From the NCBI RefSeq assembly GCF_965659345.1, contig NZ_CBFHVK010000016.1:8155-72154 (forward strand): a stretch of DNA of 64,000 nucleotides. Direction: 5' to 3'. The position numbers and the translations under genes are program-made. Source of the stretch: Planktotalea sp. Lineage in GTDB: Bacteria; Pseudomonadota; Alphaproteobacteria; Rhodobacterales; Rhodobacteraceae. Below, in pieces: positions 29,975 through 63,186 of the stretch (the first letter of the stretch is position 1; every line of letters begins with the position of its first letter). Under the pieces are notes generated by a model. That model had not been told where the DNA came from and searched no databases. It worked only from the letters and a program-made list of their open reading frames with translations.

Positions 29975-30116
29975 AGATAACAGTCGTTATTCACATGCCC
30001 TCAACTCTGCAACATTCCACGATTTATCAACGCGAATAAAGATAACAACGGAAACCGCATTACATTAAGCTTCGGTCAAGCAGCCTCAGGCTACCGCGCC
30101 CAAAACACTGCAAAGA

Positions 30117-32954: not shown

Positions 32955-35603
32955 TTAGCCTTGCAGCAAGCTCAATACACCCTGCTTGGATGCGTTGGCC
33001 TGTGCCAGCATAGACGTGGACGCCTGTGCCAGGATCTTGGACTTCGTCATGTTCGTGCTTTCAGACGCAAAGTCTGCATCTTCGATGCGGCCTTTTGCAG
33101 CTTCAGTGTTCACAGAAACATTGGTCAAGTTGGAGATCGTTGAGTCGAGGCGGTTCATAACCGCACCCAAGTTTGCACGTTCTTTGCCGACTGTCTCAAT
33201 CGCACGGTCCAGAGCATCAAGAGCAGATGTTGCGCCCGAAGATGTCGAGATATCGATAGCAGCAACCGCGCTCTGCGATGCTCCAGTACCTGTGTCATCA
33301 AGCATCTTGCCAACACCCTGCTCAGACCCTGGTGACGTCGTCATTACGCCAGTGCCGTCAGAGCTATAGTTGGACAGTTCGATCTCTCCACCAAGCGAGT
33401 TGGTCAAAGTGATCGCAGATGTGCCAGATGTCACAGATGCAGTAATGTTGGAACCGGACTGGGACAAAGCAGACTGAACTTCTGCAAGCATTGCAGAGTT
33501 GTCTGTTGTGTCAAAGCTCGTCAAACGAACAACAGAGTTTGTACGACCGTCAGAGATCTGGAAGCTCACATCGTCGGTAGCGTCCATGGACAGTTCCATC
33601 GTTGTCGCAGTCGCAACACCCGCAGCTGCAGTAGATGCACCTGTCACAGCGTTGGTATCTGTCAACGTCGCAGAACCACCCTGCCCTGCCGCAGTCGCCG
33701 CAGTAGCACTACCTGTGCCTTCAGAGCTGAAGTCGGTAATGTTGATCGCACCGCCGGAAGCGTTTGTCAGCAGCAAGTCACCGTTGGACAAGGACGCTTC
33801 GATACCAGTGATGTTGGACTGGGAGTTAACCGCCGCAACCATGTTATCCAAGTTGCCGTCCGCGACCTGCGCCGTAACCTGAGAACCGCCAACTTTGAAG
33901 GAGTATGTGTCGTCTTCGGAGAAACGCATTGTTGTCTCGGAAGGCGTCGCTTCAACACCGTTGTTTGTAGATGCGTTCTGCGCTGTCACAAGGTTCGTGG
34001 AACCCAATGTTGCAGTACCCGCAACTTCAGCCGCTTTACCTGTTGCGCCAAAGTTATCAAGCGTAACAGCTGACAAAGACTTGTTTTCAATCTCAAGCTT
34101 GCCGTCAACAACACGCGCTGTGATGTCACCGTTGATTGTTGTGTTCGCATTGATCGCGTCACGTGTCACGCCAATCGCTTCTTGCAGGGAATCACCGGCA
34201 GAAGCAGTTGCAACTGTGAAGCTCTCGCCACCTAGATCGAAGCTGTAGTCACCCTCAGATTCAGAGAACTGAAGCTGAACAATAGCGCCCGCGCCAATAT
34301 CACTTGTGTCAGATCCACCTTGAGCAAACGTGTTGCTTGGTGTTGCAACCGCTGAGTCTGTGCGGATTGTCATAGACATCGAACCAGCGGAGCCTTCTTC
34401 AGAAGACGCTGCGTCGAAGTTCGTGATCTCGATGTTCTTACCGGACGTGTCTTCTAGCGTGAAGACTTGACCAGATACCGCAGAACCGGCAGAGCCTTCA
34501 CCAATCGCAAGCTTCAATTCAGCAAGCAACTGATCTTCAGTCGTATCTGTACCAAGGTTGGAAACGCTGATGTTGTTGCCGTTGACTGTGAAGTTGTAGT
34601 CTTTACCAGCTTCAAGTGTCAGCGTACCGGATGCGTTTGTGACACCGCCACCGCCAGTGTTGCTAAGTGATGTCGTCGCACCAGCATCATTGAGAAGAAG
34701 GCTAGAACCAGATCCGGACACAGATGTGTAGGACGCTGTGCCGTTGCCGTCGGAAGCAAAGCCTGACACAGAAACTGAGTCACCAAGCTTGTTCGTGATG
34801 CTGATAACGTTGCCGTTTGCTTTCGCTTCAACAGAACCAGCAGACATTGTGCCAGCTGTTACAGCCGCGCCGATTGCTGTGTTGATCTTGTCTGCAACGT
34901 CAGAAGCAGAACCGCCTGCAACATCCGCACCCGCAATACTAAGCGTTGTTGTGCCGCCAGCGCCATCGCCAACTTCAAGATCAAAGTCATATGAGTCGTT
35001 ACCGTTGAACGCCATCTGAGCAACCGTCTCAACCGCTGCTTCACCAGATGCAGCGTTAGATGTGGATGCTGTGCTTGCTGCGCCAGACAAAGATGTACCA
35101 AGCGCTGTCGTGCTTAGGTTGCCAACTTTGAAGTTCATTGTTTGGCCGCTGTTTGCACCCAACTGAAGATCAAAATCGCCGGAACCGTCAAGCAAAGCCG
35201 TACCGTTAAAGGCCGTTGCACTTACAACGCGGTCGATTTCTTCTTTCAACTGCTCAACTTCATCGTTCAAGTTAGAGCGGTCATTGGAGTTCAACGTGTC
35301 GTTGACCGATTGTACAGACAGTTCACGCATACGCTGAAGCATGGATTCAACTTCAACCATTGCGCCTTCAGCTGTTGCAGCCATTGACTGGCCCTGGCCC
35401 GCATTTTCGATCGCTTGGTTCAAACCGCGAACCTGGCTGTTCATACGTGAAATCGTGGAAACGCCAGCCGCATCGTCAGATGCAGAGTTAACACGCTTAC
35501 CAGTCGCCAAACGCTCCATAGAAACGTCCATGTCGCGGTTTGCGCTAGAGGCAGCCGAGGCCGCCATAAGCGCGCTTGCATTACTTGCAATTGAAAGTGC
35601 CAT
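32955..35603 (-). CDS. fliC: giant flagellin (882 aa)
   Basis: Flagellin N domain (ERLATGKRVNSASDDAAG...LQRMRELSVQS) and C domain (RANLGAVMNRLDSTISNL...SMLAQANASKQGVLSLLQG) flank about 600 aa of S/T/G/A-rich repeated modules. Confidence 0.9.
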   Translation of the reverse strand: MALSIASNASALMAASAASSANRDMDVSMERLATGKRVNSASDDAAGVSTISRMNSQVRGLNQAIENAGQGQSMAATAEGAMVEVESMLQRMRELSVQSVNDTLNSNDRSNLNDEVEQLKEEIDRVVSATAFNGTALLDGSGDFDLQLGANSGQTMNFKVGNLSTTALGTSLSGAASTASTSNAASGEAAVETVAQMAFNGNDSYDFDLEVGDGAGGTTTLSIAGADVAGGSASDVADKINTAIGAAVTAGTMSAGSVEAKANGNVISITNKLGDSVSVSGFASDGNGTASYTSVSGSGSSLLLNDAGATTSLSNTGGGGVTNASGTLTLEAGKDYNFTVNGNNISVSNLGTDTTEDQLLAELKLAIGEGSAGSAVSGQVFTLEDTSGKNIEITNFDAASSEEGSAGSMSMTIRTDSAVATPSNTFAQGGSDTSDIGAGAIVQLQFSESEGDYSFDLGGESFTVATASAGDSLQEAIGVTRDAINANTTINGDITARVVDGKLEIENKSLSAVTLDNFGATGKAAEVAGTATLGSTNLVTAQNASTNNGVEATPSETTMRFSEDDTYSFKVGGSQVTAQVADGNLDNMVAAVNSQSNITGIEASLSNGDLLLTNASGGAINITDFSSEGTGSATAATAAGQGGSATLTDTNAVTGASTAAAGVATATTMELSMDATDDVSFQISDGRTNSVVRLTSFDTTDNSAMLAEVQSALSQSGSNITASVTSGTSAITLTNSLGGEIELSNYSSDGTGVMTTSPGSEQGVGKMLDDTGTGASQSAVAAIDISTSSGATSALDALDRAIETVGKERANLGAVMNRLDSTISNLTNVSVNTEAAKGRIEDADFASESTNMTKSKILAQASTSMLAQANASKQGVLSLLQG

Positions 35604-38568: not shown

Positions 38569-39729
38569 TTAAGGACGCCCCGCGTTAAAGCGAACGTTCG
38601 CTCCAGACAGTTTTACACCCGCCCGCGACGCATTCATCGGTGCAACAATCGCACTACTTTGCGAAAGCTCGACGACACGAAAAACCGTCCAAGCTTGGCC
38701 CTGGCCTTCTGCAAACGCGAGACTTTGACGAGTTAAGCCGTCCCGCGCACCAAGCTGCACCCGATATTGTTTCTTCCCAATCCCGCTCAAGCGAGCAACG
38801 AGTGGCGCACACGCCAGTTCTTCCAAGATCGGAACAAGCCCGGCGCCCATCGTTTTGGACAACTCAAGCGCAGCACTCTCTTGGTCCTTGCGGGCCACAA
38901 CATTCAACGCCCGCCAAGGCGTTCCGGGCGACAACTTCAATGTATGGCGCAACCTTATATTTCGCCCACGTGATGGTGCCGCTGGATCAACAACTTTGGC
39001 CTCGACGCTCACAAGCACTTTTCCGCTTCGCATCGAAGCACCCTCAGCAACCCACTTTAAATGAAGCGCACGCGCATTTGCGGATAGCTTCTTAGCAGGC
39101 GCTTGCGCCTTGCTCGCACCCCCAAGCAGCAAAGATTGATAATCAAAACCGGCTTGTACAGCTGTGCTTTGCCGAGCATTGCCGCGTGCCAAATCAATAT
39201 CGCTTTCAACGATCTTCACCTTTGCCGCTTTGCTCAAAACGCCCAACGTTTGGCTATGCGCCCGCGCCAACGCGTCCTGCATCCAAAGTGGCGTTTTCGC
39301 ACTGGCATAAATCTGCGGCCGAACCGCTGTCAAAACCACATCAGGACGCGCAGAACAGCCAAGTTGAGGCTGATCACCAACATAAGCGTCGATCGTAACT
39401 TCGAAATAACTTTGCATTCGGGTTTCACGAAGGATCTGAAAATCAAGAATTTTGCTAGAGGGACGCAAAAGGATCGTATCCCCAGTCAGCACACCGTGAT
39501 CAGCGACAGTAAACCCGTCAAGTTCAGCGCCTCCAGCTAACGAAGCCTGATAAAGGGCGTCTTCCAATGCAGTGCGGCGTGCGATTGCTTCATTACCAGA
39601 CTGCAAAGCTGCGCGCCCGGTGACACGTACCATCTCAGCTACGCCAATATTCGGCACACCAAATAGTATTGCGATCAGCAATGCTAACTTGAACAAACGT
39701 CCAACATTGAAAAAGCCCCGCACGCCCAT
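38569..39729 (-). CDS. FlgT-like flagellar outer ring (H-ring) assembly protein
   Basis: 386 aa with a signal peptide. N-terminal segment VTGRAALQSGNEAIARRTALEDALYQASLAGGAEL resembles the FlgT N domain. Lies next to flgP. Confidence 0.45.
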   Translation of the reverse strand: MGVRGFFNVGRLFKLALLIAILFGVPNIGVAEMVRVTGRAALQSGNEAIARRTALEDALYQASLAGGAELDGFTVADHGVLTGDTILLRPSSKILDFQILRETRMQSYFEVTIDAYVGDQPQLGCSARPDVVLTAVRPQIYASAKTPLWMQDALARAHSQTLGVLSKAAKVKIVESDIDLARGNARQSTAVQAGFDYQSLLLGGASKAQAPAKKLSANARALHLKWVAEGASMRSGKVLVSVEAKVVDPAAPSRGRNIRLRHTLKLSPGTPWRALNVVARKDQESAALELSKTMGAGLVPILEELACAPLVARLSGIGKKQYRVQLGARDGLTRQSLAFAEGQGQAWTVFRVVELSQSSAIVAPMNASRAGVKLSGANVRFNAGRP

Positions 39730-46154: not shown

Positions 46155-46174
46155 ACCTTATCCACGGATAAGGT
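46155..46174. repeat. parS-like palindrome, copy 1
   Basis: ACCTTATCC-AC-GGATAAGGT, abutting the parB stop codon. It contains TTATCCAC, which resembles a DnaA box. Confidence 0.55.
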
Positions 46175-48614: not shown

Positions 48615-48808
48615 ATTGCCTCGGACGTAGAAAACTATTCGAAGCCAATTTACGCTGGTTTTGACAATTTTGTCGAGAATAATAATATGCTAATACGTTC
48701 ACTCTACGTCGCGATTAAAGCCTAGCAAACTAAGGGCAGGTATCACATCAACCGATTCGCTTAAACCATTGTAAGTTCGTCCTTTATTTTCAAAACGTCG
48801 GTAGATAA

Positions 48809-48872
48809 TGAGGGGACATCAATTGGCCCGAACTACATCTTGAGGGGACATCTAGTGGCTATAGGGGGACGC
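48809..48872 (+). repeat. iteron-like direct repeats (candidate replication origin)
   Basis: TGAGGGGACATC at 48809 and 48841 (16/18 identity when extended), and TAGGGGGACGC at 48862. Spacings are 32 and 21 bp. An AT-rich stretch follows at 48880-48945. Confidence 0.45.
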
Positions 48873-49078
48873 ACTGAACGTCACCCAATACCATTAATAC
48901 CTAAAATCTTTATTAGAAATTAAATTTGAGAGAGGCTTTATCTCACGAATCCTTGACATTGACCTATAGCACAACGTTAATTAGAGAAGATTTAGGAATA
49001 GCGTTTGATTCAACTCGCCAGAAAGGTGAGAACAGGCGTTTCCTGAGGCAGTCGCAATGAAATACAGGGAACGCGCTC

Positions 49079-49801
49079 ATGGCGTCCGAGCATCTGAAAG
49101 CGGTGTGCCCAAAACCTTTGGGGCGCTACTCGCAAGCAATTAAATACGACATTATTTCCTCGTTACTTGTCTTGGCGACTTGTGGCACCCCTACACAAGC
49201 GAGATTGTCAGTCAGACTCTCTCTTGTAATAACAGCGCGTTATAATTGGCGCACGGGACGATTTGGAGTCGGCCAAAAAGAACTTGCGCGTATGTGGGGC
49301 GTGACTGAGCGAACCGCCAAAAGAGAACTCGCGCATATGAGGGGTTTAGGTTGGATAAGTGTTGCTATCGCTTCGGGGCGGGGGCGCGTAACGCAGCATA
49401 AAATCAATTTAGACACTGTTCTTTTACAAAGCGCGCCCTACTGGGATGCAATTGGCCCTGACTTTGCGGCCCGCATGACTGGCGCACCTGAACAAGAGCG
49501 AGAGCCGGAAGACACTAATGTTGTCCCACTACGCGTAAGCAATGAGACCCCAATATATGACAACAACACAGGCTGGGCTATGGTGGCGGAAAGGCTGCGG
49601 GAACAAGACCCTGCCATCTTTAATGCGTGGCTTTCCCAGCTTACAGCGCTTGAGGGGGATGATACGAGCATCACGTTAGGTGCGCCTTCCAAGTTCGTGG
49701 CACAGTACGTTAATACGCATTTCTTGCAGCGTATAAAGGCGAGCTTGGTAGCGATCGAGGGTGGACAGAGACAGATTAAGATTTTGTGTCTTGAAGACTA
49801 A
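49079..49801 (+). CDS. DnaA-like plasmid replication initiator
   Basis: N-terminal winged-HTH-like GVGQKELARMWGVTERTAKRELAHMRGLGWI. C-terminal segment WAMVAERLREQDPAIFNAWLSQLTALEGDDTSITLGAPSKFVAQYVNTHFLQRIK resembles DnaA domain I. Divergent from parAB. Confidence 0.7.
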   Translation: MASEHLKAVCPKPLGRYSQAIKYDIISSLLVLATCGTPTQARLSVRLSLVITARYNWRTGRFGVGQKELARMWGVTERTAKRELAHMRGLGWISVAIASGRGRVTQHKINLDTVLLQSAPYWDAIGPDFAARMTGAPEQEREPEDTNVVPLRVSNETPIYDNNTGWAMVAERLREQDPAIFNAWLSQLTALEGDDTSITLGAPSKFVAQYVNTHFLQRIKASLVAIEGGQRQIKILCLED

Positions 49802-55862: not shown

Positions 55863-56534
55863 TCACTCTGCTTTGAGATCGGTTGCAGTTTCGCCAGTCG
55901 TTTCGGAATCCGCTAAAGCAGCAGCTGCTAGGTCGGCATCTGACTCATCGGTTTCAGGGGCTAATTCAGGTTTATGAAGTGTGGCCACGCCTGAGGCAAA
56001 GAGTTGCTCGGCAACATCCTTTGGCGCTGCAAGAACTGCCCCGATTGGCAATTCAAAGTCTTGATGGGTGTATTTTTCTAGTAACAGCATTTGAACGCTT
56101 TTGCTTGCAGGTTCGATGCTTTCCTTTTGAGCGTCATCAGCGTCATCAGCGTCATCAGCGTCATCAGCGTCATCAGCGTCATCAGCGTCATCAGCGTCAT
56201 CAGCGGGAAAGCTCTGTTTGTTGCGCATCAGGATTTTAGGGAACTTGTCGCCAAGCAACTCTGAGAGAGTTGTTTCGTTCTTTATCTCTGTTCCAGCGTT
56301 GTTGGCGCTTGCCCGTGCGCGCAAGACTTGAACCCGCGCATCGAAAATCGCGGTTCGGGTCGCAGGATCGGTGATATCGTAAAGCAACTCAGCTAAGACG
56401 TTAGTGACGTGAAGAGCTGGTATGTCTGCAAGCTGATGCATCAATCGAACCGTTGTCGCGTTGGCTTTAGGCGCTGTTTTTCTAGTGGTTCGCCCCGAGG
56501 ACGTTCTCAGGCTTCGTAAAGTTTTTTCCGACAT
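55863..56534 (-). CDS. acidic hypothetical protein with a (DDA)8 tract
   Basis: Start set at MSEKTL (GGAG 7 nt upstream). The longer 309-aa ORF would overlap flgB and its promoter. Confidence 0.5.
   Translation of the reverse strand: MSEKTLRSLRTSSGRTTRKTAPKANATTVRLMHQLADIPALHVTNVLAELLYDITDPATRTAIFDARVQVLRARASANNAGTEIKNETTLSELLGDKFPKILMRNKQSFPADDADDADDADDADDADDADDADDAQKESIEPASKSVQMLLLEKYTHQDFELPIGAVLAAPKDVAEQLFASGVATLHKPELAPETDESDADLAAAALADSETTGETATDLKAE
56131..56205. repeat. perfect tandem repeat, 8 x 9 bp (GCGTCATCA) plus a partial unit
   Basis: Read directly. It is in frame and encodes ADDADDADD... on the minus strand. Confidence 0.95.
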
Positions 56535-56554
56535 TTTCAGCTCCTCGGTGAGTT

Positions 56555-56570
56555 TGGCACTCAACTTGCA
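56555..56570 (+). promoter_or_regulatory. consensus sigma54 promoter for flgBCDE
   Basis: TGGCAC-TCAAC-TTGCA, 39 nt upstream of the flgB ATG. Confidence 0.75.
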
Positions 56571-56582
56571 AATATCGGACCA
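56567..56582 (-). promoter_or_regulatory. candidate sigma54 promoter for the divergent operon, overlapping the flgB promoter
   Basis: Minus strand reads TGGTCC-GATAT-TTGCA. It shares the central TTGCAA with the plus-strand promoter. Confidence 0.4.
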
Positions 56583-56608
56583 GAAACGAAGGAACCCGGA
56601 CGAAAAAC

Positions 56609-56995
56609 ATGAACGCATTAAAAGAGCATATTTCATTCCAAGCATCGGCGCTGTCTTTGCGTAGTGCTCGCAATAACATGCTTGCTTCCAATATCGCGAA
56701 TGCTGCGACACCTGGATATAAAGCGCGTGACTTGGACTTTGATCGTGAGATGGCTGCGAAGGCAGGGGACAGCCCTGTGCGTATGACTGCATCGCGCCAC
56801 GTGAATAGTCTTACTGGCGTTGGTGCTGATCGCGTTCAGTATCGTCAACCTTTGAACCCGTCTTTGGACGGAAACACGGTTGAGATGTCTGTAGAGCAGA
56901 TGGAATTCTCTGAAAATTCTGTGCGCTACATGTCGACGCTTGAGTTCCTTAACAAACGTGTCTCGGGCCTGATGTCCGCAATCAGAGGTGAATAA
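56609..56995 (+). CDS. flgB: flagellar proximal rod protein FlgB
   Basis: LASNIANAATPGYKARD and C-terminal rod motif. Confidence 0.9.
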   Translation: MNALKEHISFQASALSLRSARNNMLASNIANAATPGYKARDLDFDREMAAKAGDSPVRMTASRHVNSLTGVGADRVQYRQPLNPSLDGNTVEMSVEQMEFSENSVRYMSTLEFLNKRVSGLMSAIRGE

Positions 56996-57414
56996 TGTCT
57001 GATATTAAGAACGTCTTCGATATCGCGGGCCGCTCGATGGCGGCGCAAATGGTGCGTTTGAACACTGTTGCCTCAAACATTGCAAACGCCGAGGCGCGCG
57101 CAGGATCGGCGGAGGATGCGTACCGTCCGCTTCGCCCTGTGTTTCAAACAGTGTTTGAAGACGGAATGCGCAATGCTGAAAAGGCGTCTGTCGAAGTACG
57201 CGATGTGATTTCGCTGAACCGAGAGCCACAGCGCGTTCATGAGCCGGGCCATCCCCTCGCGGATGAAGAGGGCTTTGTCTACATCTCGCCGGTCGATGTG
57301 AACGAAGAGATGGTCGATATGATCGAGGCCAGTCGTCAATACCAGAATAATCTAGAAGTCGTCACAACGTTACGCACCTTGATGATGCGCACTGTGAACA
57401 TGGGTAAGTCGTAG
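56995..57414 (+). CDS. flgC: flagellar rod protein FlgC
   Basis: NTVASNIANAEA...VNEEMVDMIEASRQYQNNLEV. Confidence 0.9.
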   Translation: MSDIKNVFDIAGRSMAAQMVRLNTVASNIANAEARAGSAEDAYRPLRPVFQTVFEDGMRNAEKASVEVRDVISLNREPQRVHEPGHPLADEEGFVYISPVDVNEEMVDMIEASRQYQNNLEVVTTLRTLMMRTVNMGKS

Positions 57415-57425
57415 GAGGTTAAGCA

Positions 57426-58118
57426 ATGGATATAGATAATAACAGTATGAGCGCGCAAAACGCGCTGTTGTCTAAACTTGGGATCAGCACGACTGATACC
57501 AAGCCCGAAGATGCCAAAGAAGAGCTCGGGCAGGGCGATTTTTTGAAGCTTATGACGGCTCAATTGCAGAACCAAGATCCGTTCGCCCCGATGGACAATG
57601 GTGACTTCATTGCACAAATGGCGCAGTTTTCATCCGTTGCCGGTATCAGTGATATGGGCAAAACGATGAACACGATTGCAGATCAGTTGGGTCAGTTTCG
57701 TGTTGGATCGTCGGTGAACATGCTGGGTCATTCGGTTTTGCTGCCCGGCAATATCGCACGCGCGGATGACAATGGTGAGGTACATGGCGTTCTTGACCTT
57801 GAGCGTACTTCCTTGGAAACGCGCGTTGAGTTTCTGGATGCAGAAACGGGCGAAGCGCTACACACGCTAGACCTTGGCAGTCGCGCAAGCGGCATGTCTG
57901 GTTTTGAGTGGAAAGACTTGCCAGAAGAATATCGCGACGGACGTCGCAGTATGAAGTTGGACGTAACAGTGAACTACGGTGATGGTCCTGAAGGGCTTGT
58001 GCCAAACGTATTCGCTGAAGTGATTGGCGCATCGAGCGCTGCCTCTGGTGAGGCCCAGCTTGAAGTTGAAGACTACGGTGACGTGAGCGCCGCAGAAGTT
58101 CTGCGGTTCCGTCTTTAA
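57426..58118 (+). CDS. flgD: hook capping/scaffold protein FlgD
   Basis: FLKLMTAQLQNQDPFAPMDNGDFIAQMAQFSSV. Confidence 0.85.
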   Translation: MDIDNNSMSAQNALLSKLGISTTDTKPEDAKEELGQGDFLKLMTAQLQNQDPFAPMDNGDFIAQMAQFSSVAGISDMGKTMNTIADQLGQFRVGSSVNMLGHSVLLPGNIARADDNGEVHGVLDLERTSLETRVEFLDAETGEALHTLDLGSRASGMSGFEWKDLPEEYRDGRRSMKLDVTVNYGDGPEGLVPNVFAEVIGASSAASGEAQLEVEDYGDVSAAEVLRFRL

Positions 58119-58158
58119 GGCCGCCCTAACCCATAAATTCTAGATAAGGAGAGAGCAT

Positions 58159-61100
58159 TTGTCTTTCTATACCGCTCTTACGGGCCTTAACGGCGCCCAA
58201 TCAGATATCTCGACAAGCTCGAACAACATTGCAAACGTTGGAACGACTGGCTTTAAAAGATCCCGCGCAGAATTCGGCGACATCTTTGCGACGTCACCGT
58301 TGCAGAACAGTTCATCTTCCATCGGATCCGGTGCAATCCTTAAAGGGGTGAAGCAACAGTTTACACAGGGTAACATTGCTTCGTCTTTGAATGCTTTGGA
58401 TATGGCGATTTCTGGTCAGGGTTTCTTTGCGCTTAAGCCAAGCCAGACGTCGACGCAGGTTGTTTATACACGAAACGGTTCGTTTAACGTTGATAACAAT
58501 CGAAATGTTGTGGATAGCTCTGGTCAGTTCTTGCTGACCTATCCAGTTAACGAAGACGGTTCTGTTACAGCCAAAGACATCGACAGCGCTACGCCTTTGC
58601 GTTTGCCAGTTACGTCTGGTGACCCACAGGCGACAACGAATGTTGATCTTTCGGTCAACCTGCCTGCCAACGCAGATGTTGTGATGGAAAAAGACAAATT
58701 TCGCGACGGATATACCTTTGATCCTGATGATCCCGAGAGCTTCACAAACTCAACATCGTTCACGATCTTCGATGATTTGGGTAACCCGACAATTGCGACG
58801 GTTTATTATATCAAGACTCAAGCAGCGTCGGCTGAGGATCCTACAAACAAGTTTGAAACCCGTCTTGTGATCAATGATGAAGTTGTTGCCCCTGATCTTG
58901 TTCCGGCTTTGAACGACAATGGGAACCAGATTTACATTGACCAATTTGGTAACCAGACAACAACCGTTCCCGACCCGAGTTATTTTGACGCCGGTCGGAG
59001 TGCGCCGCTGTATAAGCTAGATGAATTGCGCACGCGTTTGCCGTCGCAACCGGCAATTCTGACGGGTGAGAAGAGTGGATTTGATTTCGGTGACGAGGGC
59101 ACGCGAGAGATCGAAATTGTCACTGACCCAATGTTATTTGGCGCAACTTATGAAGCTGACGCTGCAAACCAAGGCGTTTATTGGGGAAATGATTTCCTGT
59201 TGGTGAACCTTGATGATGGCACGCGTCCTGTAAGTATTTCGGTACGTCCAGGCAGCTACAATGCTGAAGAACTTGCTGCAGAAGTTGAACGCGCCATTAA
59301 CGAATCCTACGATGACGCGCGTAAAGTTGAAGTGCGCAAAGGTGGCGAAGACACAATAAATATTCAGTTGTACACACCAAGTGCTGATGGCGATGTACCA
59401 GTTGCAAATAGTGTTTCGATTGATTTGCTTGAGCCAAGCTTTGTGTCCACGCAAGCCGGTATCGATGTTGCCAATTTAACGGCACCCAATTTCAAATTGG
59501 ATACGTTTCTTGCGCATGCTCAGGCACGTATCAATGACACTTTGAACGATCAGTTGGGTCAGAACCCTACTGCAGTGCCAAATATTGCGAGCAATCAGTT
59601 TGCGAAAATCACAACAACGGCCAAGCTGGCAGATCCCCCCGAATTGCCACAGTCCTTTGGTTTTGAATACACCACGCGTGATTTGAATGTGACCAGTCTT
59701 GCGAATGGTTCAGACCGTTGGGATATCGACTATTTTGAAGGTGAGTTTTCTGTGAGCTCTATTCAAAATGCTCCAGCGGAAAGTGGCAAAGCGGTTTCGT
59801 TTTCGGTGAACGATCGCGATGTGTTTGTTGCCATTCCTGATGGTGCAACAAGTGAATCCGAAGTTCTGAGCGCGATCAAAGCAGAGGTCGAAAAGCTTTT
59901 CACTGTTTCGACAGGTTCGCCTGAGCTAACGTTTGCAAATAACCAACTTAGTGTTTCAGGGGTTGCTGCAAATGCGCCGCAAACCCTAAATTTCGACGCC
60001 TTTGGAGCATCGCTGAGCGTTGATGTTGGGTCATCTGATACGGATGCGACGATTGCTACAAAGATCAAAGACATGATCGACGCTGCGGGCGTGCGTAATG
60101 TTTCGGTTGAGCAAAGCGGATCTGTTTTGAACATCGTTGGCCCAACTATTGAAAGCGAATCTGGTTCTGCTTCGATATCATTCGCGGTAAGCGAGCAGCG
60201 CTATATGGCGTATACAAACTTCGGAAACCGTCCCGATGTTAAGGTGTTCGACCGACAGAGCGAAGTCGCAAATTCTGGGCAAAGCCCAGCTATTGAATAC
60301 GATGCTGAAGCAGACCGACTGTCTATCACGATGAAGTCTGTCGCAGGGCTAAGCGTGGGTGACAATATCGTTCTTATGGGCGCCGATAATGATGCTGCCG
60401 CGATCAACGGGCGCAGTTATAGGATAACTGCTCTGGATGGGAATACGATCCAGATCGCAACGGGCGATCTGGGGCTGCCGGATGACAATATTGCCATCGA
60501 CGTCAACGAAAATAATCCATTTATCATTTTGTCAGAAGCATCGTCCGATGTTGAGGCCTTCTTTGAAGGTGCTGATTTGCAAGTTGCCGGTTCGGCCCAA
60601 AGTTTTAACAGCCAGCGTATTGTTATGCGCGAGCGTGAAAGTGCCCGTCACTCCTATACAGATGTAAATGTGAACGGGTCGAACAAGTCGATCTTTGGGG
60701 CTTTCGAAGCACAGCTTGGTGTTGATGCGAGCCCGACTGCGTCTGATTTTGGCCTCAGCAACTCTGCGATTGAGCTTGAGTGGGTTGATGAACGCAATCC
60801 TCCGATCAAGATTAAGTATGATGCCGCATCTCAAAGCATTGTGTTTAACATCGATCACACAGCGCTTGGGCCAGGTGGTACAATCAGTGATGTTTCTGCT
60901 GTTCAGATGTTGTCTGGAAACTCTGACAACGTAACGTCGATGAGTGCTGGTGCTTTGAGCAATTCGAGCAAAGTGACGATTACTGCATCGACCAATGTAA
61001 GCGGTACTCCCTTCATCCTAGATGGGGGCCTTGTGAGCACCAGCCCTGACCGATTTGGTGCGAAGGTGAGTTATGATCGTGATACGAGTTCGTTTGCTTT

Positions 61101-62361
61101 TGAAAGCGGAACAACAGGTAAGGCTGTTCGTGCGAACAAGGCGATGGGCGTAGAAACGGATCAAAAAGCCTCCAACATTCAGGTTGGTCGATATGAAATC
61201 GACTCAACCACGGGATTGGCGATTACAGGTGATGGTACGATTGATCTGGCTTCCCGCGTTCTTGCAGATGGCACGAGCCATTTGATGGGTGTTGGTGCAT
61301 CTGTAAGCGTTGGCTTTATGGAAGGGACAGGTTTGAAATCTGAACCGGCCAAGGCAATTGGCGGTCCCGCAAAAGACCCGTTAAACAGTCAGCCCGTGTT
61401 CCTAAACCCGGCGAACTTTGAGACAATCTTCAACGTGTCTGTTAACGGTGTGAACGCGAATATTGAGATCCCGGGTGGAAACTATATCGGCACGACCTTG
61501 GCTGACCTATTGCAGCAACGTATTAACCAAATGCGAGACCCTGAAACGGGCCAAACAATTGGTGGTGTAACGGTTAAGTATCAACCGACTGAGAACAACT
61601 TTGTCTTCACGACTGGTACAACTGGCGATACGTCAACAATCCGTGTCAAAGGACCTGCCAAACTTGGTTTGGATGACGTTCCTTTGAGTGTGGGAAGTGT
61701 CCCAACGATTGCAAAGTTGGTTCAGGCCACGAATGAAAACGGTATCCCGCTTTATGTGAATGAGAACGGCGACATCGTTGATACAGAGCCTGATAACCTG
61801 GTTTCTGACTACTACCCGCTATACTTAGACGAGGGTGAACTGACCTTTGACAAGACCGGTAAACTGGTTAGCCCACAGGGTTTGACACGGTATGAATCCC
61901 AAAGTGATTCATTCTCGATCTCGCTCGATATTGATTTCAGTAGTTCAACGCAGTTGGCAACACCGTTTGCGGTGAACAATCTTGAGCAAAACGGTTTCAC
62001 ATCGGGTCGTTTGGATGGTCTTAACATTGATGCGACGGGTCTGTTGCGTGCCAACTATACAAATGGTCAGAACAAACCGCTTGGTAAGATCGTTCTTGCG
62101 AACTTCAACAACCAGAATGGTTTGAAGCAAGTCGGAAATGCGACGTTTGTTGAAACAGCAACCTCGGGTGAGCCGTTGATTGGTGAAGCCGGTACTGAAG
62201 GTTTCGGTTCTATCCAGTCTGGTGCACTAGAGCGTTCGAACGTGGATATCACGGAAGAACTCGTCAATTTGATTACCGCACAGCGTAACTTCCAGGCGTC
62301 TTCGAAAGCGATTGAAACGTCTACGCAGCTGACCCAGACGATCATCAATATCCGAACGTAA
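58159..62361 (+). CDS. flgE: giant flagellar hook protein FlgE (1400 aa, TTG start)
   Basis: N-terminus MSFYTALTGLNGAQSDISTSSNNIANVGTTGFKRS and C-terminus SNVDITEELVNLITAQRNFQASSKAIETSTQLTQTIINI. Lies between flgD and flgF. AAGGAGAGA precedes the TTG. Confidence 0.85.
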   Translation: MSFYTALTGLNGAQSDISTSSNNIANVGTTGFKRSRAEFGDIFATSPLQNSSSSIGSGAILKGVKQQFTQGNIASSLNALDMAISGQGFFALKPSQTSTQVVYTRNGSFNVDNNRNVVDSSGQFLLTYPVNEDGSVTAKDIDSATPLRLPVTSGDPQATTNVDLSVNLPANADVVMEKDKFRDGYTFDPDDPESFTNSTSFTIFDDLGNPTIATVYYIKTQAASAEDPTNKFETRLVINDEVVAPDLVPALNDNGNQIYIDQFGNQTTTVPDPSYFDAGRSAPLYKLDELRTRLPSQPAILTGEKSGFDFGDEGTREIEIVTDPMLFGATYEADAANQGVYWGNDFLLVNLDDGTRPVSISVRPGSYNAEELAAEVERAINESYDDARKVEVRKGGEDTINIQLYTPSADGDVPVANSVSIDLLEPSFVSTQAGIDVANLTAPNFKLDTFLAHAQARINDTLNDQLGQNPTAVPNIASNQFAKITTTAKLADPPELPQSFGFEYTTRDLNVTSLANGSDRWDIDYFEGEFSVSSIQNAPAESGKAVSFSVNDRDVFVAIPDGATSESEVLSAIKAEVEKLFTVSTGSPELTFANNQLSVSGVAANAPQTLNFDAFGASLSVDVGSSDTDATIATKIKDMIDAAGVRNVSVEQSGSVLNIVGPTIESESGSASISFAVSEQRYMAYTNFGNRPDVKVFDRQSEVANSGQSPAIEYDAEADRLSITMKSVAGLSVGDNIVLMGADNDAAAINGRSYRITALDGNTIQIATGDLGLPDDNIAIDVNENNPFIILSEASSDVEAFFEGADLQVAGSAQSFNSQRIVMRERESARHSYTDVNVNGSNKSIFGAFEAQLGVDASPTASDFGLSNSAIELEWVDERNPPIKIKYDAASQSIVFNIDHTALGPGGTISDVSAVQMLSGNSDNVTSMSAGALSNSSKVTITASTNVSGTPFILDGGLVSTSPDRFGAKVSYDRDTSSFAFESGTTGKAVRANKAMGVETDQKASNIQVGRYEIDSTTGLAITGDGTIDLASRVLADGTSHLMGVGASVSVGFMEGTGLKSEPAKAIGGPAKDPLNSQPVFLNPANFETIFNVSVNGVNANIEIPGGNYIGTTLADLLQQRINQMRDPETGQTIGGVTVKYQPTENNFVFTTGTTGDTSTIRVKGPAKLGLDDVPLSVGSVPTIAKLVQATNENGIPLYVNENGDIVDTEPDNLVSDYYPLYLDEGELTFDKTGKLVSPQGLTRYESQSDSFSISLDIDFSSSTQLATPFAVNNLEQNGFTSGRLDGLNIDATGLLRANYTNGQNKPLGKIVLANFNNQNGLKQVGNATFVETATSGEPLIGEAGTEGFGSIQSGALERSNVDITEELVNLITAQRNFQASSKAIETSTQLTQTIINIRT

Positions 62362-62378
62362 TTTGATGAGTAATGTCG

Positions 62379-62403
62379 AGACCCGCTCGTGTTGAGCGGG
62401 TCT
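62379..62403 (+). terminator. hairpin after flgE (partial terminator or RNA stabiliser)
   Basis: AGACCCGCTC-gtgtt-GAGCGGGTCT, with a weak T tract. Confidence 0.4.
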
Positions 62404-62424
62404 TCATAAAAAGAAAGGTCCAAC

Positions 62425-63186
62425 ATGGATCGTAATATCCACATTGCTCTGAACAGTATGCGAAATATTGGTTCGGAACTGACCGTTAATTCGCAAAACA
62501 TGGCGAACGTAAATGTGCCGGGTTACCGCGCAGATCTTGTAGTTACGCGAGAAGCCCAAGCGGTTCAGTCGTTTGAAGAATTCCGTTCGCGGGTCTTTAG
62601 TCAGCAAGGAAAAGAGTCGCTTTTTTCAGCTGAGCAGGGGGCAATGCAAAACACCGGTGAGCCGATGGATGCGGCGATCCGAGGCGAAGGCTATTTCATG
62701 ATTGCGCCGGCGACTGGTGGTGATCCTGCTTTGTCTCGGCGCGGTGACTTCGGGTTTGATTCAGAACGTTTCATAACAGATGGCGCAGGAAGTCGTTTGT
62801 TAGACACTGAAATGAACCCTATCCAGTTACCCGAAGCGCGACGCATTGTTGTTGAAGAGACTGGACAAATTCAGATCGAATTGTTTGGGACCCCAGAGGG
62901 GACTTTTGTCCCTGGGCCGATCATTGGCACAACGACCGCCGCTGATGTGAGGCTTTCAAAGTCAATTGATGGGCATATCAGACCAGCAAATGGCGACCCG
63001 CTTCCAGCACCAGATCAACGAGCGCGTATTTCACAGGGCTTTTTGGAAAGCAGCAACGTGAACACGATTACTGCGCTTGTCAAAAACATCGAAAGCCAGC
63101 GTAATTTTGAAATGAGCGTTAAGTTTATTTCTTTGGCGCAGGAAATTGACGAAGGCTCCAGCCGTATTATGCGTTTGCCGCAGTGA
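62425..63186 (+). CDS. flgF: flagellar rod protein FlgF
   Basis: NMANVNVPGYRAD...LESSNVNTITALVKNIESQRNFEM. Confidence 0.85.
   Translation: MDRNIHIALNSMRNIGSELTVNSQNMANVNVPGYRADLVVTREAQAVQSFEEFRSRVFSQQGKESLFSAEQGAMQNTGEPMDAAIRGEGYFMIAPATGGDPALSRRGDFGFDSERFITDGAGSRLLDTEMNPIQLPEARRIVVEETGQIQIELFGTPEGTFVPGPIIGTTTAADVRLSKSIDGHIRPANGDPLPAPDQRARISQGFLESSNVNTITALVKNIESQRNFEMSVKFISLAQEIDEGSSRIMRLPQ

What the first reader, a model, noticed from the sequence alone, without database searches (positions are those of the whole stretch)
58159..62361. 1400-aa FlgE: a hook protein carrying an insertion of roughly 1000 residues
The gene sits between flgD and flgF. Its N-terminal (about 170 aa) and C-terminal (about 170 aa) segments are canonical hook segments. 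The total length is 1400 aa. Enterobacterial FlgE is about 400 aa, and the enlarged epsilonproteobacterial hooks are about 700-860 aa. The insert is rich in S/T/G/D/N and contains recurring modules of the form F-x-V-...-(S/T)xx(E/D)(L/I)Axx(I/V)...-x(I/L)x(I/V). Examples:
- VSFSVNDRDVFVAIPDGATSESEVLSAIKAEVEKLF
- LNFDAFGASLSVDVGSSDTDATIATKIKDMIDAAGV
- NANIEIPGGNYIGTTLADLLQQRINQMRD
- VSYDRDTSSFAFESGTTGKA and VKYQPTENNFVFTTGTTGDT

A hook decorated with this much extra surface mass would be structurally unusual.
Basis: partly seen in the sequence, partly recalled or inferred. Interest (0 to 1): 0.75.

Follow-up and report, generated by a model that had tools for sequence, protein, structure and literature searches.

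The report
Giant 1400-residue flagellar hook protein
This is an intact gene for a flagellar hook protein three times the usual size; similar giant hook proteins turn out to be standard in many abundant marine alphaproteobacteria, yet I found no study of them, so these bacteria probably build an unusually thick, armoured hook.

Summary
Window 58159-62361 (+) is one uninterrupted 1400-aa ORF between flgD and flgF, with a TTG start and an AAGGAG ribosome-binding site.

- **Core and insert.** Residues 1-~270 and ~1222-1400 form a complete FlgE core (D0, Dc, D1 and a split D2). About 950 residues (100 kDa) are nested inside D2 and match no Pfam, PHROG or PDB sequence.
- **Not an artefact.** All 80 loci kept from a scan of species-representative genomes carry a 1244-1767-aa flgE in the same flgB-C-D-E-F-G order. 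They include roseobacters, SAR116, Rhodobiaceae and PS1. dN/dS is 0.004-0.14 along the whole gene.
- **Insert anatomy.** The two flanks of the insert are conserved. The centre is hypervariable and rich in indels. AlphaFold2 predicts folded beta-beta-alpha-beta-beta modules and beta-rich domains. The only fold matches are weak, to flagellin outer domains and phage tail-sheath domains.
- **Flagellar context.** The cluster is the gamma-like 'fla3' type and encodes FlgT. The window's flagellin is 882 aa. Close relatives encode a 1431-1436-aa FlgK.

Most likely the insert forms an extra outer layer on the hook (estimated diameter at least 26-33 nm) that reinforces or stiffens it, with a fast-evolving exposed tip. 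I found no paper describing such hooks. Verdict: a new variant of a known kind, common rather than unique; interest about 0.6.

The parts
58146..58151 (+). Shine-Dalgarno AAGGAG, 7 nt upstream of the TTG start of flgE
   Evidence: Read directly from the sequence. Homologues also begin MSFY..., which supports this start.
58159..62361 (+). flgE: one continuous ORF of 1400 aa, 148.3 kDa, pI 4.26, no Cys
58159..58968 (+). N-terminal FlgE core, aa 1-270: D0 rod motif, Dc, D1 and the first half of D2
   Evidence: PF00460 matches aa 3-33, PF22692 aa 83-127 and PF07559 aa 181-269. NCBIfam FlgE models match aa 1-244. PDB FlgE chains 9yee and 8z5u align to aa 4-223. Identity to relatives is 65-100% per 25-residue block.
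58969..61821 (+). Insert nested in D2, aa 271-1221: about 950 aa, 100.3 kDa
   Evidence: No significant Pfam hit (one DinI match at E 0.048, below the family cut-off), no PHROG hit and no PDB sequence hit. An exhaustive HMMER search finds it almost only in other FlgE proteins. Mass.
58969..59598 (+). Conserved N-side flank of the insert, aa 271-480; includes module A (aa 343-412, nt 59185-59394) and a long helix (aa 445-467, nt 59491-59559)
   Evidence: Conservation profile, 43-72% identity per 25-residue block. AlphaFold2 secondary structure and pLDDT. dN/dS 0.006-0.026.
59599..60798 (+). Hypervariable, indel-rich centre of the insert, aa 481-880; includes module B (aa 543-604, nt 59785-59970), module C (aa 606-662, nt 59974-60144) and the first part of a beta-rich block that spans aa 663-920
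   Evidence: Identity falls to 9-30% with 40-70% gaps at aa 476-675, and relatives carry extra sequence around aa 826-875. Length variation is confined to two central segments, 175-355 aa and 77-315 aa. This region has the highest dN/dS, 0.10-0.14. It is modelled confidently, with pLDDT about 85-94.
60799..61821 (+). Conserved C-side flank of the insert, aa 881-1221. It holds a conserved segment that could not be modelled (aa 925-1058, nt 60931-61332), which contains hairpin motif E, and module D (aa 1088-1167, nt 61420-61659).
   Evidence: Identity 54-88% per block over most of the flank, lower (27-46%) around aa 901-950. Invariant motifs RFG..V.Y..F.F.SG.TG and SNIQVGR. pLDDT is below 50 for aa 925-1058 in both models, and 78-92 for aa 1059-1214. 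Modules D and E give hhalign E 1.8e-8. Module D is the part shared with the most distant relatives.
61822..62358 (+). C-terminal FlgE core, aa 1222-1400: second half of D2, then D1 and D0
   Evidence: NCBIfam FlgE models resume at aa 1222-1227. PF06429 matches aa 1353-1398. PDB FlgE chains align to aa 1255-1399. Identity to relatives is 70-97%.
62378..62404 (+). Stable stem-loop (11 bp) in the flgE-flgF spacer, with no T-tract
   Evidence: MFE -21.5 kcal/mol, z = -4.1, and 0 of 200 shuffles fold as well. The terminator scan did not call it.
56609..58118 (+). flgB (56609-56995), flgC (56995-57414) and flgD (57426-58118), upstream in the same operon
   Evidence: The same gene order is found in all 80 related loci.
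62425..63186 (+). flgF, downstream of flgE
32955..35603 (-). Enlarged flagellin (882 aa) belonging to the same flagellar system
   Evidence: Flagellin_N matches aa 5-141 and Flagellin_C aa 795-880. It has no sequence similarity to the FlgE insert.
38569..39729 (-). FlgT (H-ring protein), a marker of the gamma-like 'fla3' type of flagellar cluster
   Evidence: PF16548 FlgT_N, E 5e-13. The role of FlgT in the C. sphaeroides Fla1 flagellum is described in PMC7277832.

Best explanation
This is the functional hook-subunit gene (flgE) of a gamma-like, 'fla3'-type flagellar gene cluster in a roseobacter related to Planktotalea and HTCC2083.

**What is shown**
- The protein keeps a complete, highly conserved FlgE core (D0, Dc, D1 and D2) that would build the normal hook tube.
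- A roughly 950-residue, multi-domain insertion sits in a loop of D2, the outermost core domain.
- The insertion is conserved and under purifying selection across hundreds of marine alphaproteobacterial lineages.
- It shows a flagellin-like gradient: conserved at its two flanks and hypervariable in the middle.

**What is inferred**
- The subunit is exported unfolded by the flagellar type III system. It has no cysteines and the acidic composition typical of axial proteins.
- In the assembled hook, the roughly 120 copies of the insert form an extra outer sleeve. This would raise the hook diameter from about 18 nm to at least 26-33 nm.
- The conserved flanks of the insert make lateral contacts between subunits that strengthen or stiffen the hook. 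These flanks include a conserved segment (aa 925-1058) that does not fold in monomer predictions. The model for this is the D3/D4 domains of Campylobacter FlgE.
- The variable tip is exposed to solvent.
- The thick hook would match the bulky FlgK junction (1431-1436 aa in close relatives) and the enlarged 882-aa flagellin of the same system.

**How sure I am.** About 0.9 that it is an intact, functional giant hook subunit. About 0.45-0.5 that mechanical reinforcement is its main role.
For: **Identity**
- Pfam and NCBIfam FlgE matches at both ends, and the flgBCD-E-FG operon context.
- The best PDB sequence hits are FlgE chains of 434 and 437 aa, which align only to aa 4-223 and aa 1255-1399.

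**Not an artefact, and conserved**
- More than 100 homologues of 1245-1657 aa.
- 317 species-representative genomes hold a relative. The 80 loci kept all carry a giant flgE in the same operon: 1244-1767 aa stop to stop where the gene is complete; some genes run off a contig end and two are split (see Noticed in passing).
- A finished plasmid of Octadecabacter arcticus encodes a 1410-aa FlgE.

**Selection**
- dN/dS against HTCC2083 and a Planktotalea genome is 0.004-0.14 in every region, the insert included.

**The insert is folded and modular**
- AlphaFold2 pLDDT is 80-94 over about aa 400-920 and 78-92 over aa 1059-1214.
- Conserved flanks and a variable centre.

**Precedents for a structural role of outer domains**
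- C. jejuni D3/D4 make the hook stronger and stiffer (PMC5097172 abstract; PMC9254593).
- In C. sphaeroides Fla1, which has the same cluster type, the 860-aa central region of the 1363-aa FlgK1 is needed to swim under load (PMC7277832).

**Enlargement of the neighbouring parts**
- FlgK is 1431 aa in a relative whose FlgE is 93% identical, and 1436 aa in O. arcticus.
- The window's flagellin is 882 aa.

**Fold of module D**
- It resembles outer or decoration domains of other helical tubes: cyanophage A-1(L) sheath 8kee_C (probability 1.00), V. cholerae FlaA 9n8g_C (0.98) and a myophage tail sheath (1.00).
Against: - There is no direct evidence of expression, export, assembly or hook thickness.
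- Motility driven by fla3-only clusters has not been tested in roseobacters, and the Octadecabacter type strains are described as non-motile (PMC5030684).
- The Foldseek matches are marginal (E 1e-3 to 4e-2, low TM-scores) and say nothing about contacts between subunits.
- The diameter estimate is a volume calculation. It assumes a Salmonella-like lattice with a 4.1 A axial rise, a 9 nm core radius and 50-100% packing.
- C. sphaeroides, the characterised model of this cluster type, has a normal 423-aa FlgE. A giant hook is therefore not required for this kind of flagellum.
- A hypervariable centre is as easily explained by pressure from phages or grazers as by mechanics.
Confidence: 0.6

Rival explanations
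1. The outer domains are mainly a variable surface coat rather than a mechanical element. They would shield the conserved hook core from flagellum-binding phages or grazers, or act as an adhesin in a 'swim-and-stick' lifestyle. The central cassettes would be swapped under diversifying pressure.
For: - The centre of the insert is hypervariable and rich in indels (9-30% identity, 40-70% gaps, cassette lengths of 175-355 and 77-315 aa) while the rest is conserved.
- This region has the highest dN/dS in the gene (0.10-0.14).
- Fold resemblance to phage sheath or fibre decoration domains and to flagellin outer domains.
- One distant homologue (P0140) reuses FlgE_D2 together with insert module D (phmmer stretch at aa 2098-2281 of P0140) in a 2492-aa repeat protein that lacks the hook D0 ends.
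Against: - Pairwise dN/dS is still far below 1.
- About 60% of the insert (aa 271-480 and 881-1221) is strongly conserved with invariant motifs, more than a simple shield would need.
- No adhesin, lectin or carbohydrate-binding family is detected in this protein.
- The hook is a tiny fraction of the flagellar surface, so it is a poor place for an adhesin.
Confidence: 0.25
2. The flagellar cluster is cryptic or rarely expressed cargo of a mobile replicon, so the giant FlgE has little present-day function in this organism.
For: - A plasmid-type ParA/ParB and DnaA-like module lies inside the window.
- The same cluster sits on plasmid pOA238_118 of O. arcticus, a species described as non-motile.
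- fla3 clusters are spread by horizontal transfer (PMC11974857).
Against: - Strong purifying selection acts over the whole 4.2-kb gene although synonymous divergence is near saturation (dS about 1-2).
- The ORF and the operon are intact in nearly all 80 loci from very different lineages.
Confidence: 0.06
3. The insert is removed after translation (intein-like or proteolytic processing), so the mature hook is ordinary.
For: Nothing specific.
Against: - No Hint or intein family is detected in the protein.
- There are no cysteines and only 4 histidines, and the junctions are not intein-like.
- The insert is folded, conserved and hypervariable at its tip, as expected for an exposed structural part.
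- Comparably large axial proteins are known to be assembled intact: FlgK1 of 1363 aa (PMC7277832) and giant flagellins of more than 1000 aa (PMC6248924).
Confidence: 0.03
4. An assembly or frameshift artefact has fused two genes.
For: None. Two of the 80 related loci (L046, L074, long-read polished MAGs) show the gene split into 2-3 ORFs, which shows that such errors do occur in the opposite direction.
Against: - The FlgE core is split around the insert, with N- and C-halves of D2 on either side. No fusion of two genes would produce this.
- The architecture is the same in independent isolates, complete chromosomes, single-cell genomes and a finished plasmid.
Confidence: 0.01

Closest known systems
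Enlarged FlgE of Campylobacter jejuni (865 aa; PDB 5jxl, 5az4) and Helicobacter pylori (PDB 5npy, a 618-aa chain), with extra domains D3/D4
   Same: - FlgE carries additional domains beyond D2 on the outside of the hook.
- Those domains add contacts between subunits and make the hook stiffer (PMC5097172, PMC9254593).
- The core D0, D1 and D2 are homologous to this protein.
   Different: - The insert here is about 950 aa, roughly twice the extra sequence of C. jejuni FlgE (865 aa against about 400 aa for a minimal FlgE).
- It has no detectable sequence similarity to D3/D4: phmmer with the insert alone finds no PDB chain.
- The TIGR02489 flgE_epsilon model scores 174.6 against a cut-off of 412.85, and only through the core.
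- The Foldseek hit to 5jxl is weak (probability 0.87, rmsd 13 A).
- The fold content includes alpha/beta (beta-beta-alpha-beta-beta) modules.
- The lineage differs: marine Alphaproteobacteria with a gamma-like cluster.
Fla1 flagellum of Cereibacter (Rhodobacter) sphaeroides, the reference 'fla3'-type cluster of Rhodobacterales
   Same: - flgBCDEF operon order.
- FlgT, the H-ring protein.
- A giant FlgK (1363 aa in C. sphaeroides; 1431-1436 aa in close relatives of this window) that forms a bulky hook-filament junction and whose central region is needed to bear load (PMC7277832).
   Different: - C. sphaeroides FlgE1 is an ordinary 423 aa, with small proline-rich insertions that give a straight hook. 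Here FlgE itself is giant.
- The FlgE insert shows no similarity to the relative's FlgK by BLASTP.
- It lacks the flagellin/hook IN motifs reported in FlgK1.
Giant flagellins (more than 1000 aa) of marine Oceanospirillales such as Bermanella and Oleibacter (PMC6248924)
   Same: - The concept is the same: a flagellar axial protein with conserved termini and a very large, variable, surface-exposed central region.
- It produces a visibly thicker structure.
- It occurs in marine bacteria.
   Different: - The protein family is different: flagellin forms the filament, FlgE the hook.
- That paper does not treat hook proteins beyond using them to filter hits.
- There is no sequence similarity between the window's 882-aa flagellin and the FlgE insert.
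FlgE chains of 434 and 437 aa in recent flagellar-motor structures (PDB 9yee, 8z5u)
   Same: These are the closest solved relatives of the core, at E 6e-73 and 9e-70. They align to aa 4-223 and aa 1255-1399.
   Different: Where these proteins have a short D2 segment of about 80 residues, this protein has about 1030 residues.
Outer (insertion) domains of contractile-phage tail sheath proteins (PDB 8kee_C, 9cba; BFVD A0A8S5UN87)
   Same: Fold-level resemblance to module D and its surroundings: probability 0.96-1.00, 122-137 aligned columns, rmsd 4.7-6.2 A. Both are decorations on the outside of a helical tube.
   Different: - No sequence or profile similarity.
- E-values are marginal.
- This is a resemblance only, not evidence of common descent.

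Membership tests
FlgE (flagellar hook protein) | N-terminal rod/hook D0 motif (PF00460) and C-terminal Flg_bbr_C (PF06429) | tested here: met
   PF00460 matches aa 3-33 at E 5e-6. PF06429 matches aa 1353-1398 at E 4e-17.
FlgE (flagellar hook protein) | D1 domain (PF22692) and the FlgE-specific D2 domain (PF07559) | tested here: met
   PF22692 at E 1.6e-11. PF07559 at E 3.6e-18 in two stretches split by the insert.
FlgE (flagellar hook protein) | Gene position between flgD (hook cap) and flgF/flgG (rod) | tested here: met
   The position is conserved in all 80 related loci and in the annotated O. arcticus plasmid.
FlgE (flagellar hook protein) | Score above the curated cut-off of an NCBIfam FlgE equivalog model | tested here: not met
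   The best models are NF004240 (395.5 bits against a cut-off of 472) and NF004238 (382.7 against 400). Only the subfamily model TIGR03506 FlgEFG passes (285.9 against 70.25). The shortfall comes from the interrupted D2. It explains the generic database name 'flagellar hook-basal body complex protein'.
FlgE (flagellar hook protein) | Polymerises into the hook of an assembled flagellum | not testable with these tools
   This needs purified hook-basal bodies with mass spectrometry, or cryo-EM.
Epsilonproteobacterial enlarged FlgE (TIGR02489, D3/D4 type) | Match to the flgE_epsilon model, including the D3/D4 region | tested here: not met
   174.6 bits against a cut-off of 412.85, and only the core matches (its best stretch is aa 1220-1399). 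The insert alone finds no PDB FlgE.
Proteins carrying the flagellin/hook IN motif (PF07196) | Pfam PF07196 match in the central region | tested here: not met
   hmmscan of the insert at E <= 1 returns only a sub-threshold DinI match.
'fla3'-type flagellar gene cluster of Rhodobacterales (C. sphaeroides Fla1 type) | Gamma-like gene order (flgBCDEFGHIJKL), FlgT H-ring protein, sigma-54 regulators and FliA, giant FlgK | tested here: met
   FlgT is in the window. The flgB-L order and a 1431-aa FlgK occur in a relative whose FlgE is 93% identical. Sigma-54 regulators, FliA and a 1436-aa FlgK are in the O. arcticus cluster. No four-protein phylogeny (FlhA, FliF, FlgH, FlgI) was run.
Giant flagellins (Thomson et al. 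2018) | Flagellin_N and Flagellin_C termini, and length over 1000 aa | tested here: not met
   FlgE has no flagellin domains. The window's own flagellin has them but is 882 aa.

The most novel reading that the evidence does not exclude
Giant FlgE defines a distinct 'armoured' flagellum in some of the ocean's most abundant Alphaproteobacteria: SAR116, Planktomarina/RCA, HIMB11 and the HTCC2083/Planktotalea group. In this reading the hook (1250-1770-aa FlgE), the junction (about 1430-aa FlgK) and the filament (about 880-aa flagellin) are all enlarged.

The roughly 120 FlgE inserts would interlock into a self-made sheath-like lattice. The conserved segment aa 925-1058 would fold only on assembly. 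This lattice would change the bending and buckling mechanics of the hook, and therefore how these small monotrichous cells turn. Its swappable tip would evolve under pressure from phages or grazers.
Probability: 0.35. Interest if true: 0.75.

Novelty: new variant of a known kind. Interest (0 to 1): 0.6.

Why it matters
- **The hook is the universal joint of the flagellum.** Its stiffness sets how single-flagellum marine bacteria reorient and how much torque they can transmit.
- **Known structures cover a narrow size range.** Structural knowledge rests on hooks made of subunits of 400-865 aa.
- **This family is far larger and ecologically important.** Subunits of 1250-1770 aa are conserved across roseobacters, SAR116 and other abundant pelagic Alphaproteobacteria. 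A major share of marine motile bacteria may therefore use a hook architecture that nobody has imaged.
- **Cultured carriers exist, so it is testable.** Hook diameter, mechanics and the role of the variable tip can be measured directly.
- **It completes a pattern.** Giant flagellins and the giant FlgK of C. sphaeroides are already known. Together with giant FlgE, they show that every external axial part of the flagellum can be massively decorated.
- **It affects annotation.** These proteins fall below the NCBIfam FlgE equivalog cut-offs and so receive generic names.

Tried and rejected
- **Self-BLAST of the protein for internal repeats:** nothing. Only profile-profile comparison shows repeats.
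- **Foldseek with the whole 1141-residue model against PDB:** only long spurious alignments with TM below 0.15 (endosialidase, viral capsids), a Uba1 sub-domain, and the FlgE D2 of P. aeruginosa. The search against BFVD was similar, apart from a few domain-level hits to tail sheath and fibre proteins.
- **Second AlphaFold2 run on aa 925-1225 with a more diverse alignment:** aa 925-1058 stayed unmodelled.
- **Sequence searches of the insert against Pfam, PHROGs and PDB, and a module-D profile against PDB:** no informative hits.
- **Module-D profile against the 5.8-billion-protein set:** it returned only 27 proteins, mostly FlgE fragments and including one Oceanospirillaceae fragment, with no non-FlgE carriers.
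- **BLASTP of the insert against the window's flagellin and FliD, and against the relative's giant FlgK:** no similarity, so there is no evidence of domains shared between the axial proteins.
- **Cluster look-up to put taxon names on the distant relatives of 830-1400 aa:** all are unnamed metagenome proteins.
- **Intein or processing idea:** rejected, because there is no Hint domain and no Cys.
- **Enzyme in the insert (as in flagellinolysin-type flagellins):** no catalytic family was detected and there are only 4 His.
- **Literature searches for giant, large or thick hook or FlgE, and for FlgE with SAR116:** nothing relevant.

Full report
**1. The observation**

Window 58159-62361 (+) is a single ORF of 1400 codons. 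It starts at TTG, 7 nt downstream of an AAGGAG ribosome-binding site, and ends at TAA. It lies between flgD (57426-58118) and flgF (62425-63186), with flgB and flgC upstream.

Pfam finds the rod/hook D0 motif (aa 3-33), D1 (aa 83-127), FlgE_D2 in two stretches (the first at aa 181-269, profile positions 10-91 of 142) and the C-terminal Flg_bbr_C (aa 1353-1398). NCBIfam FlgE models match aa 1-244 and resume at aa 1222-1227. The closest solved relatives are FlgE chains of 434 and 437 aa (PDB 9yee, 8z5u). They align only to aa 4-223 and aa 1255-1399.

So the canonical parts (about 270 + 180 aa) add up to a full-size FlgE. About 950 residues (100.3 kDa of the 148.3 kDa total) are nested inside D2, the outermost core domain. 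Its remark on S/T/G/D/N richness applies equally to the core.

**2. It is not an artefact, and it is not rare**

- A search of 5.8 billion proteins returned more than 100 homologues of 1245-1657 aa. Named ones come from Planktotalea (93% identity), Marivita, Lacimonas, Sulfitobacter, Yoonia, Loktanella and other Rhodobacteraceae, and include proteins on complete chromosomes.
- A scan of one genome per GTDB species found 317 genomes encoding a relative.
- The best 80 loci all carry a giant flgE in the order flgB-C-D-E-F-G; where the gene is complete it is 1244-1767 aa, stop to stop.
- The taxa include Planktotalea, HTCC2083, Thalassobacter, Yoonia, Lentibacter, Planktomarina, HIMB11 and Seohaeicola (1767 aa). 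Outside the Rhodobacterales they include SAR116/Puniceispirillales, Rhodobiaceae, Rhodospirillaceae and the PS1 clade.
- The finished plasmid pOA238_118 of Octadecabacter arcticus 238 encodes a 1410-aa copy.
- Two long-read MAGs have the gene broken into pieces (L046, L074). This is the opposite of a fusion error.

**3. Selection**

I compared the gene with HTCC2083 (L004) and a Planktotalea MAG (L001). Synonymous sites are near saturation (dS about 1-2), yet dN/dS is 0.004-0.03 in the core and in the conserved parts of the insert. It is 0.10-0.14 in aa 481-680. The whole insert is therefore constrained coding sequence.

**4. Anatomy of the insert**

*Conservation.* Against 30 diverse homologues, aa 271-480 and aa 881-1221 are conserved (43-88% identity per 25-residue block over most of their length). 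Identity at aa 476-675 falls to 9-30% with 40-70% gaps. Relatives carry extra sequence near aa 826-875. Using sequence anchors, the N-terminal 406-462 aa, a 90-aa block and the C-terminal 433-435 aa are length-invariant. Two central segments range over 175-355 aa and 77-315 aa. This is the conservation gradient seen in flagellins: conserved near the junctions with the core, variable at the distal tip.

*Predicted structure.* An AlphaFold2 model of aa 150-1290 has mean pLDDT 69 and is confident (80-94) over about aa 400-920 and aa 1059-1180. It shows:
- four modules with the same beta-beta-alpha-beta-beta(-beta) order: A (aa 343-412), B (543-604), C (606-662) and D (1088-1167);
- a long helix (aa 445-467);
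- a beta-rich block (aa 663-920).

*Are the repeats real?* The modules are not detectable by BLAST. Profile-profile comparison gives A-D at E 1.9e-4, B-C at E 6.7e-4 and A-B at E 1.6e-3, all in register, against E >= 0.02 for control segments. B-D (E 0.025) and C-D (E 0.064) are no better than the controls. The two 'V.Y....F.F..GTTG' hairpins (aa 970-989 and 1138-1157) match at probability 95%, E 1.8e-8.

*An unmodelled conserved segment.* Segment aa 925-1058 is conserved, with the invariant motifs RFG..V.Y..F.F.SG.TG and SNIQVGR. It stays below pLDDT 50 in two independent predictions. I infer that it may become ordered only in the assembled lattice.

*Database matches.*
- The insert has no significant Pfam match (the flagellin/hook IN motif is absent), no PHROG match and no PDB sequence match.
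- An exhaustive HMMER scan of 1.84 billion cluster representatives found 223 relatives. All eight long hits I checked with Pfam carry FlgE domains. One of them, P0140 (2492 aa), combines ALTTAQ repeats, FlgE_D2, module D and an FlgD Ig-like domain and lacks the hook D0 ends.
- A module-D profile again found only FlgE fragments.
- At the fold level, module D weakly resembles outer domains of other helical tubes: cyanophage A-1(L) sheath 8kee_C (probability 1.00, E 1e-3), V. cholerae FlaA (0.98), phage PhiTE sheath (0.96) and a myophage sheath in BFVD (1.00). It also matches C. jejuni FlgE more weakly (0.87). These are resemblances only.

**5. Context**

- The window also encodes FlgT (the H-ring protein), FlhA, an FlhF-like protein, FliD (549 aa) and an 882-aa flagellin.
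- In contigs of a relative whose FlgE is 93% identical, the operon continues flgF-G-H-I-J-K-L, with FlgK of 1431 aa.
- The O. arcticus plasmid has FlgK of 1436 aa, plus sigma-54 regulators and FliA.
- This is the gamma-like 'fla3' cluster type of Rhodobacterales, whose reference is the Fla1 flagellum of C. sphaeroides (PMC11974857, PMC5030684, PMC7277832).
- In C. sphaeroides, FlgK1 is giant (1363 aa, bulky junction) and its central region is needed to swim under load. FlgE1, however, is an ordinary 423 aa.
- Here the hook, the junction and the filament proteins are all enlarged.

**6. How it most likely works**

*Shown:* an intact FlgE core; a conserved, folded, nested insertion in D2; a conserved operon; purifying selection; a variable tip.

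*Inferred:*
- The subunit is exported by the flagellar type III system. It has no Cys and pI 4.3, like other axial proteins. Export of axial proteins of 1363 aa and of more than 1000 aa has precedent (PMC7277832, PMC6248924).
- It polymerises under the FlgD cap into a normal D0-D1-D2 tube.
- The inserts then form an additional outer sleeve.
- A volume estimate gives an outer diameter of about 26-33 nm, against about 18 nm for a Salmonella-type hook, and a hook mass near 18 MDa for 120 subunits. The estimate uses 100.3 kDa per subunit, 1.21 cubic A per Da, an axial rise of 4.1 A per subunit, a core radius of 9 nm and 50-100% packing.
- By analogy with C. jejuni D3/D4, which add contacts within and between protofilaments and stiffen the hook (PMC5097172, PMC9254593), the conserved flanks of the insert probably brace neighbouring subunits. 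They would also match the hook to the bulky FlgK junction, while the variable tip faces the water.

The main rival is that the sleeve is chiefly a variable protective or adhesive coat. The data do not exclude this, and the two roles are compatible.

**7. Comparison with what is known, and novelty**

- It is a member of the FlgE family by domains and context, although it misses the NCBIfam FlgE equivalog cut-offs because D2 is interrupted.
- It is not a member of the epsilonproteobacterial D3/D4 type.
- It is conceptually parallel to the giant flagellins.
- The structural literature I could search calls the 865-aa C. jejuni FlgE 'one of the longest' (PMC5069557), and a 2022 review mentions only D3/D4 as extra domains (PMC9254593).
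- Seven full-text searches found no description of FlgE proteins of this size.
- The proteins are already in databases under generic names. The novelty lies in recognising a widespread, uncharacterised giant-hook variant, not a new kind of system.

**8. Limits**

- There is no experimental evidence of expression, assembly or thickness.
- Motility driven by fla3-only clusters is untested in roseobacters, and Octadecabacter is described as non-motile.
- The fold matches are marginal.
- I could not check whether the source genome also has a second, ordinary flgE.
- The literature library covers open-access papers and bioRxiv only.

Noticed in passing
window 46174-49801: A plasmid-type maintenance module lies between flhA/flhF and the flgB operon. 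It comprises a ParB-like gene (46174-47274, -), a ParA-like gene (47271-48614, -) and a 240-aa protein with a DnaA_N domain and an HTH (49079-49801, +). The ParA is 88% identical to the ParA of the 143-kb plasmid of Marinovum algicola DG898 (CP010860.1), apparently the 143-kb DnaA-like I replicon that the literature reports as carrying a flagellar cluster. The window may therefore come from an extrachromosomal replicon or chromid. The literature reports almost all fla3 clusters as chromosomal.
   Followed up: partly
window 32955-35603 (-): The flagellin is 882 aa, with about 650 aa between its Flagellin_N and Flagellin_C domains. That is well above the 495 aa of Salmonella FliC, though below the 1000-aa 'giant' threshold. 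BLASTP shows no similarity to the FlgE insert.
   Followed up: partly
L081 18055-22350 (a contig whose FlgE is 93% identical); L084 28072-32382 (O. arcticus plasmid pOA238_118): Downstream of the giant flgE, the same operon encodes a giant FlgK of 1431 aa (relative) or 1436 aa (O. arcticus). This resembles the 1363-aa FlgK1 that forms the bulky hook-filament junction of C. sphaeroides. The window ends before this gene.
   Followed up: partly
window 62378-62404: A very stable 11-bp stem-loop (-21.5 kcal/mol, z = -4.1) lies 17 nt after the flgE stop codon and 20 nt before the flgF start. It has no T-tract. It could be an attenuator or an mRNA-stabilising element that sets the FlgE:FlgF ratio.
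   Followed up: partly
protein P0140 (2492 aa, metagenomic; not in the window): This is a non-hook protein. It combines 28 ALTTAQ repeats, an FlgE_D2 domain, the conserved insert module D and a C-terminal FlgD Ig-like domain, and it lacks the D0 rod motifs. Hook outer domains seem to have been recruited into a large repeat protein.
   Followed up: no
window 55863-56792 (-): This 309-aa ORF runs divergently from flgB. It contains a (D-D-A)n acidic repeat, has no Pfam match, and its 5' end overlaps the flgB start. Relatives annotate a shorter hypothetical gene (192-213 aa) at this position. Its function is unknown.
   Followed up: no
window 26301-27491 (+) and 28250-32306 (+): A BLUF-EAL protein (a likely blue-light-sensing c-di-GMP phosphodiesterase) is followed by two hybrid histidine kinases, just upstream of the flagellin gene. 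This hints at control of this flagellar system by light or c-di-GMP.
   Followed up: no
L046 5536-9871 and L074 5535-9725: In two long-read, Pilon-polished MAGs the giant flgE is split into 2-3 overlapping ORFs. These are probably residual frameshift errors, but they could be pseudogenes.
   Followed up: no
L010, L025, L032, L075: Short contigs carrying this alphaproteobacterial flgBCDE operon sit in MAGs labelled Sphingomonadales, Opitutia, Planctomycetaceae and Verrucomicrobiota. This is most likely binning contamination rather than true hosts.
   Followed up: no
window 23953-25380 (-): A 475-aa protein with a C-terminal Hint_2 domain (E 2e-55). It is unrelated to the flagellar genes.
   Followed up: no
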